A stretch of DNA of 64,000 bases, from positions 1 through 64,000 of the forward strand of contig CAVXAT010000008.1 in NCBI GenBank assembly GCA_963759805.1, written 5' to 3'. The position numbers were made by a program. How positions within the stretch are numbered: the first letter of the stretch is position 1; each line of letters opens with the position of its first letter. The stretch is from an uncultured bacterium (GTDB lineage Bacteria > Babelota > Babeliae > Babelales > RVW-14). Below, piece after piece: positions 1 to 6,000 of the stretch.

Positions 1-3000
1 AAAGCAGCAAAAATATACACCCGAAAACCTCCTGTATCTTGCTCATTGTATTATAGGCCCCATTATTTTAGGCTATTCGTTTGCACAAGACTCTTTATGC
101 ACAAATTTTAATTATTAGGATTATTTAATCTTCTTTACAACTTTGTGCCCTGGCGTCTTTTTAATTTCTCCAGCCTTTTGCTCGCTTTCTTTGAACGCAT
201 GATTGACTTGATCTACAGCATCTTGCGTAGCTATGGATTTCTTGAACTCTATCTTACTTAAAGTTGAAAGCTTCCATGCCTTGTCCGCACCGGTATTAAT
301 CTCAATGGCACTTAACTGAACCTTTTTGGGAATCAAAATATTCTCAAGCGTAACCCCTGTATCAAAAACCACTTTGGCAAGAACAAATTCTTCCGAAGTA
401 TTATCTTGTTTTTTATACTTATTGCTTTTAAAGGCCGAATTTATAATCTGAATCTCTTTAATTTTTGCTATATCCAAATCCGTAACTGAAAAATCCCCCT
501 CCGTCTCGTTCTTTATCCCACCAAGTTTGGTGCTACCTCCAAATGAAATCTCTTTAACATCGTAAATAACTTTGGGATTTCCTTGTGCGTCAAGTTCCCC
601 TCCAAAAATTTTCGCCTCAAAAATACCCTGTCCTTCTTGCAGCGGACACAAATTTTAAATCATCCAAATCAGCCGAAGAAACCCCTCCTGAGGAACCAGG
701 CCCACGTATATCCATAGCTGAAAAGATCGCAAGGCAAACACATAATGAAAATAATTTTAGTAAATTGGAACAATAATACATAAAAAATCTCCTTTCTCCT
801 AACAGTTTTAAAACTTTAGCCGTAAGGTAACAATTTTTATTTAAAAAATACAAGAATTTTAAAATAAGTTCCAATAAGCTTAAAATAAATTCATTGTAAT
901 ATTGTCATCGATATCTTGAGATTGCACCGAATCAGGCTCGGGTTGTGCAGAATCAAAACTTACCGGTTTTCCGGATTTGGATTTTTTTCGGTGCTGTTTT
1001 TCATGCGGGTGATCACAACAGGCAGATGAATTTTCATGTAAATTTTCATGCGTGACGGCTGCACCGATCGATTCAGGAGCACCCGATTCAAGACGCACTT
1101 GTTCAAGAACCACCGGTTCGAGTATTAACTTTGGAGCCTGTGCTTTAAGCTCAACATTATTTAAACTATTTTTAGTCAATTTTTCAGCATGATTTGAAAA
1201 ACCAAGTTCAATTACCTTATCAATAAATTCCATCGGCTTCATACCACACTCTGCCGCTTGATGGAAGATACAGGTTGCAGGAGTCATTCCGGGTAATGTG
1301 TTAAATTCTAGGATCACAACTCGAGGCTTACCTGTTTTGCTCTGGGTTCCATCTTGATAAAAACAGTCAATCCTAGCATATCCGACACATCCGACAAATT
1401 TGTACGCCTCAACCATTATATTTTTAACAAACTCAAGCGTAGCAACCGGAAGATTTGCTGGAGTCTGATTTTCTCCCGCACCGGGTAAAAACTTCTCTTC
1501 AATTGAAAGTATGTCGTTTTTGGCTACAGTTTGGGATGGGACAAGGGCTCTGACGTCTTTATCGTTCCCAATTACACCGCAAGTCAACTCCGTACCAACA
1601 ATAAGCTCCTCAATCATTGCATTTGTTTTTCCTGATTGAACAAAGTACTGATCAATAAGATCAATGGCATCACCACGATTTTTGATTTTTTTAACAAATA
1701 CACTGCATCCGTCATCATGGGGTTTTAGAACAAGTGGATAATGATAATCTTTTAAATTTGAATCGATATATTCGTTTTTTTCTTCAACCGATTTTTCCTG
1801 CCAAGCTTGAAGTGGAATTAAGAAAGAGTCCGGAACATCAAATCCATGTGAACGTAAAAAATTGTTAGTTTTAAATTTGTCCATGCAAAGTGCACTGGCC
1901 AACACACCAGAACCGTTGTAAGGAAGGGCCAACATCTCTAGTGCCCCCTGAACTCCTCCTCCCTCACCAAGGCCACCATGCAGACCAATAAATACAAAAT
2001 CACAAATGTTAGGTAGTTCTGACCAAGAGACTTTTTGCGCCTTATCAAGCATACTTGATATCCCACGAGTAGAATTCTTAATCAACAAACGCTGATCTAA
2101 CTTATACAACTCATGCAAATTAGTAACAAAAAGTGGTATACATTCATATTTTTGGGGAGAAAGTTTATAGCAGATGTTTCTTCCGGATTCAAGCGAAATT
2201 TCACGTTCATTTGTGGCACCGCCTAACAACACTGCTACTCGTATTTTTTCCCCGCCACGTTTATTTGTTTCCACAGAATTTTCCCCCTTGCTACCGTCAC
2301 CGGTAAATTCGAGCATTCCTGCTAATTTTAGTTCGGTTTCGATTAAATAATTGATCAGTTGAGTGTGACTCATTCCATACTCTGCAGCCTGATGGAATAA
2401 AAACGTTGAAGGAGACATTCCCGTCAAAGTGTTCGGATCAATTAAAATGACCCTCCCGTCTTTAGTTAAAAAGCCATCAATACGCGAAATAGTTGAAAAA
2501 TTCAAAAGAATAGATGCTTTTATACATGTTTGTGAAATTTTTTGCAAATCCTGATCCGAACAACGAGCAGGTGTAATTTTTGTTGCACGGCCGGGCATAT
2601 ACTTTTGTTCGTAATCATATATACTCTGCTCTTCCGGAACAACTTCCGTTATCGGAAAAGTAAACCACTCTGCATCTATCTTTTCATTTCGCTTAATAGC
2701 TCGCTGCAAGCAGACGCAAACAAACTCCATGCCTTCAATTTTTTCTTCAATAATGACATCCTGAACTCTACGATCGTCGACATATGCAGCTTTTTTAATT
2801 GCGGGAATAAGCTCATCTTCTGTTAAAACTTTTGATACTCCAAGACTGGAACCTTCGTGAATAGGTTTTACTATGCAGGGCAACTTGGTTCCAGCTTTTT
2901 CAAGTCTAAGCAAAATGTCTTTGGTACTTAAAGAATTTGCTTCAGTCAAAGAATCAACTTCAGATTTATTAACAGTAATACCGGGGGCAACATCAATCCC

Positions 3001-6000
3001 ATTGGCCCTAAAAATCTCTTTCTGAACAAATTTGTTCATGCCAAGGGCACTGCCAAAAATTTTACTGCCCAGATATGGAATGTTCAAAATCTCAAGCATG
3101 CCTTGAATTGTACCATCTTCAGCAAAACGGCCATGTACGGCAAGATAAACAAAGTCGACCAAACTTCTCAGCTCATCCCAAGTAATTTTTTGAGCCTCTT
3201 TTGCCAATCGTGACTGAAAATCTGCAATCTTTCCACGATGCAAAAAATGCCATGGTAGACTGTACAAAGTTCCATCTTCATCTTGAAATAATGGAATAAC
3301 CTCGTACTTACCAGTATCCAAATGGTCGCAAATTGTGCGACCGGAATTTAATGAGACTTCCCGTTCAATTGATTTACCACCAAAGAATACCCCCACTTTA
3401 AGCTTAGCTGCCGTGTTTAAAACTTGCATCTAACGCCTTCCCAATCTTGAAACATGACTGTTACTTTAAAATTTAAAAACTTAATCTAATGCGAGTTCGG
3501 TAACTCTAAAATTAAAGCGCAATGGATTGTGCAGTGTTTTGGTAATACTGTGTCATGCTGAACTAGTTTCAGCATCCATGGATAAATTTATTCCAAATTT
3601 TTGTAATTGAGCAATAGGAGCAACTAATCCATGGATCCCAGCCGTCGCTAAAGCTATGGCGGGCAGGCCTGAAATAAATTCAGGATGACAGACCTCTGGT
3701 CAGAAGCTACTTTTAACATCCACAGCCCTTTTACTAATTATCGAACTTGCGTTAATCTATCAATTTAAGTAGGTTTTAACATTTCGTAAAGCTCTTTTAA
3801 TGCTTTAACCGGATTTTTTTCAGAAAAAATAGATGACCCGACAACAACGGCATCGATGCCAAGCCCTGAAAGCATTTTTATGTTATCTTTGCCAATTCCA
3901 CCATCCATATAAATTTTAAAGTTTTCATTTTGAGTATTTCTGTAGGCAATGACTCTTTTAACCTTTTCAATAACCTCCGGCATAAACGTCTGTCCGGCAA
4001 AGCCCGGTTTTACAGACATTATAAGAATTTTGTCAAAAAGATTAAGATGCGATGCCACAAGAGAGATATTTGTGTGGGGATCATATATGTGAGTGTGTGG
4101 ATTAAAGGCCATTCCAACCTGCCAACCCTTTGCCTTAACTTTATCAACTAAATCTTTCATGGGCTTGAAACATTCAAATGCCTCGTAATGAAATATAAAT
4201 ACATCCTTCTTACTAAGATCCAATCTATCAACCCAACATTTTGGATGATCAACCATCAAGTGTACGTGGATTGGCTTGTGTGTTGCTTGTGCAATTGCAT
4301 TCACGAAATCCGGACCCATTGTTAAATTTGGAACAAAGTGATCATCCATAACGTCAATGTGGTAACCATCACAGTGTTCATCTAAATCAGAGATAACTTT
4401 TGCCAGATTTAGCAAATCTGCACACATCAGAGAAGGGTATATTTCCATTATCTTGGACATTAGAATTCCTAAATTTTAAGGCTAAATTTTAATATCTTTC
4501 TTTTATTAAAACACTCTTGCCCTGAAAAGCAATCCCAAGCTTCAAAATTTTCTTGATACCAAAAGCGTTCAATTCTTGTGCATATTTTTTATCTTCGATC
4601 TGCTCCAACGCTGCAACAACAGCTTGCTCAAGTGTCTCTTTCTGATATTGACTTCTTTTTTTGAATTCGATTATAATACCAAGTTTATTCTTGTCATTTG
4701 GAATTAACATGACATCATAGCGCCCCAATCCACTCTCTCTATTTGATCTTATAACATATTCATTGCCCAAACTCACAAGCATTCCAAGCACAAACGCGTG
4801 ATAAAATTTTTCAGGCTCTTGTCCACTAACATCAAACATGCTAAAACTTTTCAGCACAAAATCAGTAAAAAGTTCTTTAAATTTTTCTACTTCGCCTGAG
4901 ATAAGACTATTGAGCATCAGATTGTAACGCTTCTCCCCAATATTATTTTTACACCAACTGTTAATAACATTTCTGTAAAACCATGCTACTTCATCATTAG
5001 GAATCAACAAATCGGCGTATTTTTGACCATTCTCAACGGCAGCATTTTTAAATGTCAGATATCCACTAAAAATTAAAAAGCTCCAAACAGCATTTGTAGC
5101 CTTGTTTTCCACCAAGTCTGCAAACACAATATTTTCTTCTATTGCCTTACGTATCGATTCTCTTTTTATTAAAGCCTCAAAATCTTCTTTGAGCTCATCA
5201 CTTCCATGTTGAATTAAGTCCTTAACAATATCATTGCTACTGGTATTAACCCAAAATGGCTCAAATTCACCGTTATTTTTAATCAGATTTATAATCGACC
5301 AAGGGTTATAAACATTGATTTTACTCCCGGTTGCATAACCGTTATACCAAGATTTAACATCTTCAATTTTATTTGAAAGATTATAATGGGCCATTGCATC
5401 TGCAACTTCTGTTTCCGTCATTCCAAATTTATCAGAATACAAAGATGATAGCATCGAGCAAACGCTCAAATTATTTAATCCGCTAAAAATACTCTCTTTG
5501 GCAATACGTAAAATGCCTGTGATTACGGAGAATTGAAGAGAAGCGTTGTCCTTTAGCCCTCCACTCAAAAATCCTCTGGAAAAACTAATTATCTTATCAT
5601 AATATTTGTGATAAAAACCTGCCTGAATTGGAGTATCGTATTCATCAATTAGAATAATTGGATTTTGTTTGTGGTATTTTGCAAGACTCTCAGATAGATT
5701 CTTTAACGAATTTTGATAAACAGTCATACTTGCAATTCTGTTAATTATATTTTCAAAGTCTTTTTTTTGAGTGGAGTCTAAAACATCACTTGAAAGCAAA
5801 TAATTATGTCGACGAAATTCTTCGCTTATGAGCTGCACAAGCATGTTATAGCAATCATTCCAGTTATACTGCTTCACATCTTTAAATGTCAAAAATATCA
5901 CAGGATATTTGCCCTGATTAGCCATAAATTCATGATGCTTAGAAATTTTTAGTCCGTCAAAGAGTCCTATGTTCGATGTTGTTGTTTTTTCGAAAAAATA

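What a model noticed while it worked through the whole genome (the two positions that open the first line are those of the whole stretch)
880..3429. Single-chain tandem D-Ala-D-Ala ligase with a Tyr-type and a Phe-type half
g00833 (C8:880-3429, minus strand, 849 aa) is two complete D-alanine--D-alanine ligase (Ddl) units fused head to tail; both keep the ATP-grasp catalytic residues but differ at fixed positions, e.g. the loop Lys-Tyr of the N-half is Lys-Phe in the C-half. I read it as a covalent pseudo-dimer whose halves have split the job: one makes D-Ala-D-Ala, the other a different D-Ala-D-X product (a depsipeptide such as D-Ala-D-lactate is the boldest guess, given a VanX-like dipeptidase g00110 and a D-2-hydroxyacid dehydrogenase g00326 in the genome). 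A duplicated, internally differentiated Ddl that is standard in Babelota has not been described and would predict an unusual peptidoglycan stem-peptide ch [...]
Evidence so far: Pfam: Dala_Dala_lig_N + _C twice, residues 11-364 and 397-741. Swiss-Prot: each half aligns end to end with ordinary 311-365 aa Ddl (31-33% identity, E 1e-44). find_homologous_proteins: the 120 listed of 2894 hits are 734-906 aa, 52-84% identical over 86-100% of the query, names only Babeliales/Dependentiae/TM6 or 'bacterium' apart from one MAG labelled Epsilonproteobacteria. Halves of 120 homologues aligned to each other: halves 32% identical in this genome; kept in both: K188/K569-P, E-G-S-S/D-G-C-S, E228/E607, E235/E614, R316-x-D318/R686-x-D688, N333/N710; fixed differences: Q275-K-Y277 (99-100%) against E645-K-F647 (100%), D331 against E708, H36 against K422, and a C-half-only insertion. 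[...]
(Added by a program. Inside this text positions count along the whole contig: contig position 1 is position 1 of the stretch shown here. "Call 12" and the like, gene names such as g00115 and contig names such as C1 are that model's own, and its searches are not shown. The text may have been shortened before it was handed on; [...] marks where a part breaks off. The agent that wrote the report below was given it as the finding of a first reader that could run no searches.)

Follow-up and report, generated by a model that had tools for sequence, protein, structure and literature searches.

The report
Plant-type double D-Ala-D-Ala ligase
This gene fuses two unequal copies of the cell-wall enzyme D-Ala-D-Ala ligase; it is the bacterial counterpart of the double enzyme known from plants, some bacteria keep the two copies as separate genes, and it most likely makes ordinary D-Ala-D-Ala, although what each half does is untested.

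Summary
In detail: an 849-aa ORF with two complete Ddl units, a Ser/Tyr/Asp-x-Asn N-half and a Cys/Phe/Glu-x-Asn C-half. It is standard in the phylum (185 of 189 good genomes match).

It is not Babelota-specific, and the architecture is in print. It is the half-for-half orthologue of the two-domain plant DDL, and also occurs in Bacteroidota, alphaproteobacterial, chlamydial and Bacillota genomes. Moss DDL has the same Tyr/Phe, Ser/Cys and Asp/Glu split, and moss makes the D-Ala-D-Ala pentapeptide. VanH-like genes (20 of 120) and VanX-like genes (106 of 189) do not track the ligase, so D-Ala-D-lactate is unlikely.

Added here: the two types also exist as separate genes in Syntrophales, Chloroflexota and a Patescibacteria bin. 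In Syntrophales 48 of 48 genomes with the C-type gene keep the N-type too, in place of a canonical Ddl. Trees put duplication and specialisation before one fusion; six Babelota genomes have re-split it.

Best reading: an obligate asymmetric dimer supplying D-Ala-D-Ala to MurF; the role of each site is untested. This scan noted the fused family five times before on other DNA.

The parts
880..3429 (-). Gene for the two-domain D-Ala-D-Ala ligase, 849 aa; the only match to this protein in the assembly
2320..3405 (-). N-half (residues 9-370): complete Ddl unit of the Ser/Tyr/Asp-x-Asn type
2251..2319 (-). Flexible linker (about residues 371-393); six Babelota genomes are split into two genes at this point
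   Evidence: low pLDDT around residue 380
1180..2250 (-). C-half (residues 394-750): complete Ddl unit of the Cys/Phe/Glu-x-Asn type
2848..2850 (-). S194 = DdlB S150, canonical in the N-half
2599..2604 (-). K276-Y277 = DdlB K215-Y216, canonical omega-loop pair
2431..2439 (-). D331-P-N333: Asp in place of the metal ligand E270 (Asp in 352 of 353 N-halves; Glu in 45 of 45 canonical Ddl)
1705..1707 (-). C575: Cys in place of DdlB S150 (347 of 353 C-halves)
1489..1494 (-). K646-F647: Phe in place of DdlB Y216 (352 of 353 C-halves, 1 gap)
1300..1308 (-). E708-F-N710: canonical Glu-x-Asn metal motif in the C-half
883..1179 (-). C-terminal tail (residues 751-849), disordered from 774, variable in length among relatives
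883..897 (-). Conserved terminal motif T-M-x-L-F at the end of the tail; possible docking motif
   Evidence: 45 of 56 long-tailed homologues; 1 of 1081 ORFs in the genome

Best explanation
The protein is this bacterium's housekeeping D-Ala-D-Ala ligase, built as an obligate asymmetric dimer. An ancestral ddl duplicated. The copies specialised into an N-type subunit (Ser150, Tyr216, but Asp for Glu270) and a C-type subunit (Glu270, but Cys150 and Phe216) and came to depend on each other. They later fused once, so one chain now forms the Ddl dimer. Both sites probably still bind ATP, Mg and D-Ala. The net product handed to MurF is D-Ala-D-Ala, so stems are conventional. SHOWN: the architecture, residue pattern, orthology with plant DDL, co-retention of both types, and absence of a canonical Ddl alongside. 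INFERRED: the pairing of the two types, mutual dependence, the product in Babelota (from moss), and activity of both sites. Which site turns over faster is undetermined: the N-half has the normal lid but an altered metal ligand, the C-half the reverse.
For: Only Ddl: one match in G000; in 5 of 5 non-Babelota genomes the fused gene is the top Ddl-domain hit. Pathway links: fusions to MurF and to MurF-Alr, and neighbours PASTA, ftsQ-ftsA and Mur ligases, alr and mraY. Four of five Ddl-less Babelota genomes have 0-1 Mur-like hits against the usual 4-5. Product: the moss protein shares the signatures and is orthologous; moss UDP-MurNAc-pentapeptide (m-2)/2 was expected at 595.6629 and seen at 595.6646 (PMC9434261 Table 1); moss ddl knock-outs give macrochloroplasts (second-hand). 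Both types kept: 48 of 48 Syntrophales genomes with the C-type have the N-type, often unlinked; 15 other genomes have a single weaker hit, and 6 of those that I read were canonical; 9 of 10 genomes hold both types and no canonical Ddl; 6 re-split Babelota keep both halves. Catalytic residues are near-invariant in both halves across 353 proteins. The single-chain model has pTM 0.85. The unfused pair scored ipSAE 0.92 against a best control of 0.00, with contacts at least 97% in agreement and partner pLDDT at least 88; the mark was reached by 116 of 157 solved and 2 of 215 mismatched pairs. Ddl homodimers are solved, so that pass may be likeness only and does not separate hetero- from homodimer.
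Against: I found no assay of either half, nor of any bacterial member, in the papers searched. Babelota peptidoglycan has not been analysed here. Phe at this position predicts depsipeptide synthesis in lactic acid bacteria (PMC5996685). A minor D-lactate form (m/z 596.155) would hide under the 13C peak (596.165) at the resolution used for moss. G269 has a C-type gene plus a canonical Ddl and no N-type, which fits a separate job for the C-type (one bin, completeness not given). Co-retention also fits two separately essential homodimers. Neither half alone reaches the NCBIfam Ddl cut-offs. G079 lacks an intact Ddl yet keeps 4 Mur hits. Kin genomes are not independent.
Confidence: 0.62

Rival explanations
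1. Division of products. The N-type site makes D-Ala-D-Ala. The C-type site, with a loosened lid (Cys/Phe) and a smaller residue at DdlB 282, makes or removes another D-Ala-D-X (Gly, D-Ser, another D-amino acid), giving mixed stems or an editing function.
For: Fixed, subunit-specific changes cluster at the second-substrate site: S150C, Y210L, Y216F, S281T, L282C/V. G269 keeps a C-type beside a canonical Ddl. D-Ala dimerisation with other amino acids is reported in plants, with no known enzyme (PMC7432710).
Against: An accessory product should be lost now and then, yet loss of the C-type alone was not seen (48 of 48; plants keep both halves). The only pentapeptide listed for moss in the passages read is the D-Ala-D-Ala form.
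Confidence: 0.14
2. One reading: the C-half is a D-Ala-D-lactate ligase, and with VanX-like and VanH-like genes the cell makes depsipeptide stems.
For: Phe in the loop marks depsipeptide ligases in lactic acid bacteria. E. coli DdlB Y216F and S150A are said to gain this activity (recalled; not found). A minor depsipeptide is not excluded in moss.
Against: VanH-like genes occur in 20 of 120 good genomes, 0 of 121 over the cut-off, 0 of 7 in the own family. VanX-like genes occur in 106 of 189, against 185 of 189 for the ligase. The local dehydrogenase scores 155 bits against a VanH cut-off of 540 and sits beside an IS110 transposase; the VanX-like protein scores 205 against 320. The C-half scores 139 bits against 550 for D-Ala-D-Lac ligases and lacks VanA's Arg at DdlB 282. 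The moss product is D-Ala-D-Ala.
Confidence: 0.07
3. One half is the enzyme and the other a nucleotide- or ligand-binding regulator or scaffold. Either direction is possible; the N-half, with Asp for the metal ligand Glu270 and loss of Pro275, is as good a candidate for the weak half as the Phe half.
For: E270D in 352 of 353 N-halves against Glu in 45 of 45 canonical Ddl. G276A in 52 of 121 Babelota C-halves. Arabidopsis lines that still express only the C-terminal unit look normal, which the authors ascribe, untested, to residual activity (PMC9954125).
Against: Neither half shows erosion of E15, H63, K97, K144, E180, E187, K215, R255, D257 or N272, and both are about equally conserved (62% and 58% mean identity in Babelota).
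Confidence: 0.15
4. Assembly artefact or a recent neutral tandem duplication.
For: None beyond the repeated domain content.
Against: The halves are only 33% identical, the form is present across the phylum, and each half is closer to the same half in moss than to its partner.
Confidence: 0.01

Closest known systems
Plant and green-algal DDL (Physcomitrium PpDDL, Arabidopsis At-DDL)
   Same: Two Ddl units in one chain (PMC9954125). Same order and same signature substitutions in each half. N-halves group with N-halves and C-halves with C-halves.
   Different: About 29-31% identity. Plant proteins are longer, with an N-terminal extension and insertions. They nest in a different bacterial subgroup (Chloroflexota, alphaproteobacterial and chlamydial bins); a plant + main Babelota clade is rejected, p-AU 2e-6 and 1e-8. 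The 7-residue C-half insertion and the M-x-L-F tail are not in the moss protein.
Canonical homodimeric D-Ala-D-Ala ligase (E. coli DdlA/DdlB, EC 6.3.2.4)
   Same: Fold, ATP-grasp catalytic set, pathway context.
   Different: Two unequal subunits. Each departs from residues invariant in 45 of 45 canonical controls: E270, P275 and P284 in the N-type; S150, Y216, S281 and P284 in the C-type. The family is a separate clade, 100/100.
D-Ala-D-Lac ligases of lactic acid bacteria (Leuconostoc F261 type) and VanA
   Same: Phe at the Y216-equivalent position in the C-half.
   Different: Far below the NCBIfam cut-offs. VanA lies outside the family clade. No linked VanH or VanX. Cys instead of Ser at 150; no Arg at 282.
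Carbamoyl-phosphate synthetase large subunit (recalled analogy)
   Same: Two ATP-grasp units from an old duplication with different jobs (recalled).
   Different: Different family; no channelling between the Ddl sites was tested or is implied.

Membership tests
Plant-type two-domain DDL | Two complete Ddl units in one polypeptide | tested here: met
   definition from PMC9954125
Plant-type two-domain DDL | Half-for-half orthology with moss and angiosperm DDL | tested here: met
   N-type 94/96, C-type 99/97, fused subclades 100/98 and 100/99; shared signatures
Plant-type two-domain DDL | Needed for D-Ala-D-Ala supply to peptidoglycan | not testable with these tools
   Indirect only: sole Ddl and loss together with Mur ligases
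D-Ala-D-Ala ligase (EC 6.3.2.4) | Ddl N and C Pfam domains and ATP-grasp fold | tested here: met
D-Ala-D-Ala ligase (EC 6.3.2.4) | Catalytic set E15, H63, K97, K144, E180, E187, K215, R255, D257, N272 | tested here: met
   both halves
D-Ala-D-Ala ligase (EC 6.3.2.4) | E270 metal ligand and E15-S150-Y216 triad together in one site (roles recalled) | tested here: not met
   N-half has the triad but D331; C-half has E708 but C575 and F647
D-Ala-D-Ala ligase (EC 6.3.2.4) | NCBIfam TIGR01205 cut-off (245.65 bits) per unit | tested here: inconclusive
   whole protein 436; N-half 236; C-half 206
D-Ala-D-Lac ligase, VanA/B/D/M type | NF000206 cut-off 550 bits; Arg at DdlB 282; long omega loop | tested here: not met
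   139 bits; Cys720 against VanA Arg, and a short K-F loop
D-Ala-D-Lac ligase, VanA/B/D/M type | Linked vanH-vanA-vanX cluster | tested here: not met
   neighbours are rpe, an AAA/PD-(D/E)XK gene and psd; VanX-like and dehydrogenase genes are on other contigs and below cut-off
D-Ala-D-Lac ligase, lactic-acid-bacterium type | Phe at the Y216/F261 position | tested here: met
   F647; rule from PMC5996685, established only in Lactobacillales
D-Ala-D-Lac ligase, lactic-acid-bacterium type | Depsipeptide-ending precursors in the cell | not testable with these tools
   the orthologue's host, moss, has the D-Ala-D-Ala precursor; a minor form is not excluded
D-Ala-D-Ser ligase (VanC/E/G/L/N) | NF000207 cut-off 520 bits; partner serine racemase VanT | tested here: not met
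   139 bits; the genome's racemase passes alr (318 > 168) but not VanT (274 < 460)

The most novel reading that the evidence does not exclude
An undescribed heteromeric, two-subunit class of Ddl whose sites do different chemistry: one joins D-Ala to D-Ala, the other makes, or edits out, a different D-Ala-D-X. It arose as a two-gene pair, fused once, spread among Babelota, Bacteroidota and other bacteria, and became the plastid DDL of plants, which would explain why angiosperms keep both halves. In the window's lineage a disordered tail ending in M-x-L-F may also tether the enzyme to a partner, possibly the replication clamp.
Probability: 0.2. Interest if true: 0.8.

Novelty: new variant of a known kind. 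Interest (0 to 1): 0.48.

Why it matters
The enzyme class, the two-domain architecture (in plants) and the likely product are known, so this is not a new pathway. What appears not to be in print is that the double DDL is an ancient bacterial two-subunit enzyme with fixed, complementary active-site changes, which also exists as separate genes kept together. It offers a simple route to an open plant question: whether each half of DDL is a working ligase, and why angiosperms keep both. The natural two-gene pairs can be purified singly and together. It also warns that the Tyr/Phe rule for predicting D-lactate termini should not be applied outside lactic acid bacteria.

Tried and rejected
Babelota-only family: rejected.

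Van-like cassette: rejected on linkage, scores and distribution.

C-half replacing the missing MurF: rejected, since MurF is over the cut-off in 233 of 261 genomes.

Babelota as donor of the plant gene: rejected by the tree and AU test. The AU groups were chosen after I had seen the trees, and the model was LG+G4 without mixture.

Internal duplication within the fused lineage: rejected, p-AU 0.008 (same caveats).

Split Babelota genes as frameshift errors: judged unlikely. Each C unit has its own start codon just before its first strand, with a purine-rich stretch upstream read by eye. No reads were checked.

A Cys/His metal site in the tail: matched in 1 of 119 homologues, rejected.

A pattern scan with P0265 found nothing; the alignment query worked.

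Literature searches that gave no description of bacterial tandem or heteromeric Ddl. One search found no paper on the DdlB mutants, so those statements are recalled. One search found no rice ligase paper; its top hit was not read. PMC4814524 passages were not relevant. Hirano 2016 was not held and Sato & Takano 2017 was not read; either may already mention the bacterial double Ddl.
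Full report
1. Observation. The ORF at 880-3429 (minus strand) encodes 849 aa without internal stops. 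Both Ddl Pfam domains match twice, each half matches solved Ddl structures, and the halves are 33% identical. AlphaFold2 on a 106-row alignment gave pLDDT 87.4 and pTM 0.85, with a flexible linker near residue 380 and a disordered tail from 774; the top fold hits are Ddl chains. The taxonomy rests on names of close homologues, Babeliales/Dependentiae/TM6.

2. Distribution in the phylum. 237 of 261 genomes match, 185 of 189 among good ones; by hand count 201 of 261 have a single match at E <= 1e-200. I looked at 10 of the 36 weaker cases. Six are split into two adjacent genes, N then C (G030, G084, G085, G110, G197, G247), one is fused with insertions (G252), and three (family f19) carry a distant version of the same double enzyme. 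Five genomes 92-98% complete have no PF07478 match; four of them have 0-1 Mur-like hits against the usual 4-5, while G079 keeps 4. PMC4776705 (passages) notes loss of most peptidoglycan genes in B. massiliensis. The own genome has alr, four Mur-ligase-domain hits and three transpeptidases; MurF was not found in this 89%-complete assembly.

3. Outside the phylum. A search of 50% representatives showed two further groups of double Ddl. One is Bacteroidota, where the gene precedes a PASTA-domain gene. The other holds bins named Rickettsiales, Micavibrio, Parachlamydiaceae, Chlamydiales, Clostridium, Vallitaleaceae and Promineifilaceae and the plant DDLs, including Physcomitrium P0294. Some members are fused to MurF or MurF-Alr (MurF inferred from Mur domains beside Alr). 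In 5 of 5 such genomes the double gene is the top Ddl-domain hit. PMC9954125 (passages and supplement legends) states that At-DDL and the moss homologue are fusions of two putative DDL enzymes, found throughout plants. PMC9434261 (passages) notes that moss Ddl is closest to homologues of the Fibrobacteres-Chlorobi-Bacteroidetes group.

4. Active sites. Of 410 inputs, 359 could be cut into two halves; 353 were counted (121 Babelota-like, 3 f19, 38 Bacteroidota-like, 87 other bacterial-like, 104 plant-like) and 6 unassigned were left out. Group labels are partly inferred from motifs and length, since many hits are unnamed. Both halves keep E15, H63, E68, K97, K144, E180, E187, K215, R255, D257 and N272 (DdlB numbering) almost without exception. 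N-halves keep S150 and Y216 (353 of 353) but have Asp at 270 (352 of 353), Ser/Thr at 275 and mostly Phe at 282. C-halves keep E270 and P275 but have Cys at 150 (347 of 353), Leu at 210, Phe at 216 (352 of 353), Thr at 281 and Cys/Val/Ala at 282. Control: 45 of 45 canonical single Ddls have S150, Y216, E270, P275, S281 and P284. Moss DDL shows the same Ser/Cys, Tyr/Phe and Asp/Glu split; it differs from the window protein at lesser positions such as K422 (Asn in 94 of 104 plant-like C-halves). The functional roles of these DdlB positions are recalled.

5. Unfused pairs. Single-domain relatives turned out to be two separate genes, an N-type followed by a C-type, in Syntrophales, Chloroflexota and a Patescibacteria bin, often just after alr or near mraY. 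In 10 whole genomes, 9 hold both types and no canonical Ddl, four of them on different contigs; G269 holds a C-type and a canonical Ddl. Among 66 genomes of the order of G271, 48 have the C-type and all 48 also have the N-type (two partial; typed by identity band, hand count). Fifteen have a single weaker hit, and 6 of those that I read were canonical; 3 have none; only G296 has a third, divergent hit. In G337 the two genes are about 258 kb apart. These genomes are kin, so the count is not 48 independent events. ESMFold2 supports binding of one such pair: ipSAE 0.92, best of 3 controls 0.00, contacts at least 97% in agreement, partner pLDDT at least 88; the mark was reached by 116 of 157 solved and 2 of 215 mismatched pairs, and the counts hold only roughly with my alignments. 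Ddl homodimers are solved, so this may be likeness alone.

6. History. An 80-row tree (IQ-TREE, LG+G4, 348 columns; 16 rows of the set dropped, 19 added) puts N-types (94/96) and C-types (99/97) as sister groups, apart from 16 canonical Ddl and VanA rows (100/100). Fused forms make one subclade in each (100/98, 100/99), with the unfused pairs outside. A clade of all fused halves is rejected (p-AU 0.008, 45 rows), as is plants plus main Babelota (2e-6 and 1e-8, 19 rows each); the groups were named after I had seen earlier trees. Reading: duplication, specialisation, one fusion, spread between phyla, re-splitting in some Babelota. Babelota are not the source of the plant gene.

7. Product. [quoted passage not shown] A major D-lactate form would sit at 596.155; a minor one would overlap the 13C peak. 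Knock-out and function statements for moss DDL come second-hand (PMC9954125, PMC12681378, PMC7432710 passages), as the original paper is not held. The Phe rule is real in Lactobacillales (PMC5996685 passages), but its helpers are missing here. VanH-like genes occur in 20 of 120 good genomes, none over the cut-off; VanX-like genes in 106 of 189. The local dehydrogenase scores best as glyoxylate reductase and lies beside an IS110 transposase. The VanX-like protein is below cut-off and begins with a hydrophobic, signal-like stretch, read by eye.

8. Mechanism. Most likely an obligate asymmetric dimer that makes D-Ala-D-Ala (0.62). Rivals: one regulatory half (0.15), a second D-Ala-D-X or editing site (0.14), D-Ala-D-lactate (0.07). 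The product is inferred from moss, and interdependence from co-retention; no enzyme assay was found.

9. Novelty. The double architecture is published for plants, and this scan reported the fused family five times on other DNA (my reading was stated before that look-up). I found no paper on bacterial double or two-gene Ddl (PMC10784329 passages, do not discuss it), and no earlier finding on the unfused pairs. The library lacks most subscription papers, including Hirano 2016 and Sato & Takano 2017, and figure S3C of PMC9954125 is an image I could not see. Verdict: a new variant of a known kind, interest 0.48.

Noticed in passing
window 883-897 (-), end of the Ddl tail: The disordered tail ends in a conserved [ML]-x-[LIMF]-F motif: 45 of 56 long-tailed homologues, 6 of 61 short-tailed (3 skipped), and only this protein among 1081 ORFs of the genome. 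It resembles the clamp-binding motif Q-aliphatic-x-L-F (bioRxiv 10.64898/2026.05.27.728225, passages) but usually has Thr in place of the important Gln. Partner unknown.
   Followed up: partly
L080, L081, L082 (G173, G174, G171; family f19): These Babelota carry an 812-826 aa double Ddl only 29-31% identical to the window's, nested among the plant-like bacterial group: probably replacement by horizontal transfer within the same family.
   Followed up: partly
G115, G118, G007, G080: Genomes 95-98% complete with no Ddl-domain match and 0-1 Mur-like hits: apparent repeated loss of peptidoglycan precursor synthesis in Babelota.
   Followed up: partly
P0229, P0231, P0133: Longer fusions: Ddl-Ddl-Mur ligase-Alr (1638 aa), Ddl-Ddl-Mur ligase (1262 aa), Ddl-Ddl-PASTA (1262 aa).
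   Followed up: no
L103:2679-3479, L098:2735-3496: In several Syntrophales a TIGR04219-like outer-membrane beta-barrel gene lies between the N-type and C-type genes or just before the C-type.
   Followed up: no
L181 and L186 (G269): The one genome seen with a C-type gene plus a canonical Ddl and no N-type; may be an incomplete bin or a natural subunit replacement.
   Followed up: partly
window 3765-9561 (-): Upstream genes on the same strand: ribulose-phosphate epimerase (3765-4460), AAA-ATPase/PD-(D/E)XK protein (4489-6237), phosphatidylserine decarboxylase (6247-7062), and an 831-aa ORF (7066-9561) that looks like BamA by eye. No mur genes nearby.
   Followed up: partly
window 121-651 (-): 176-aa ORF downstream of the ligase with no Pfam match.
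   Followed up: no
L031:1414-2184 and L033:910-1845 (G000 C1, C5): Two VanX/M15-like peptidases, both below the VanX cut-off; the first has an insertion in the domain and a signal-like N-terminus.
   Followed up: partly
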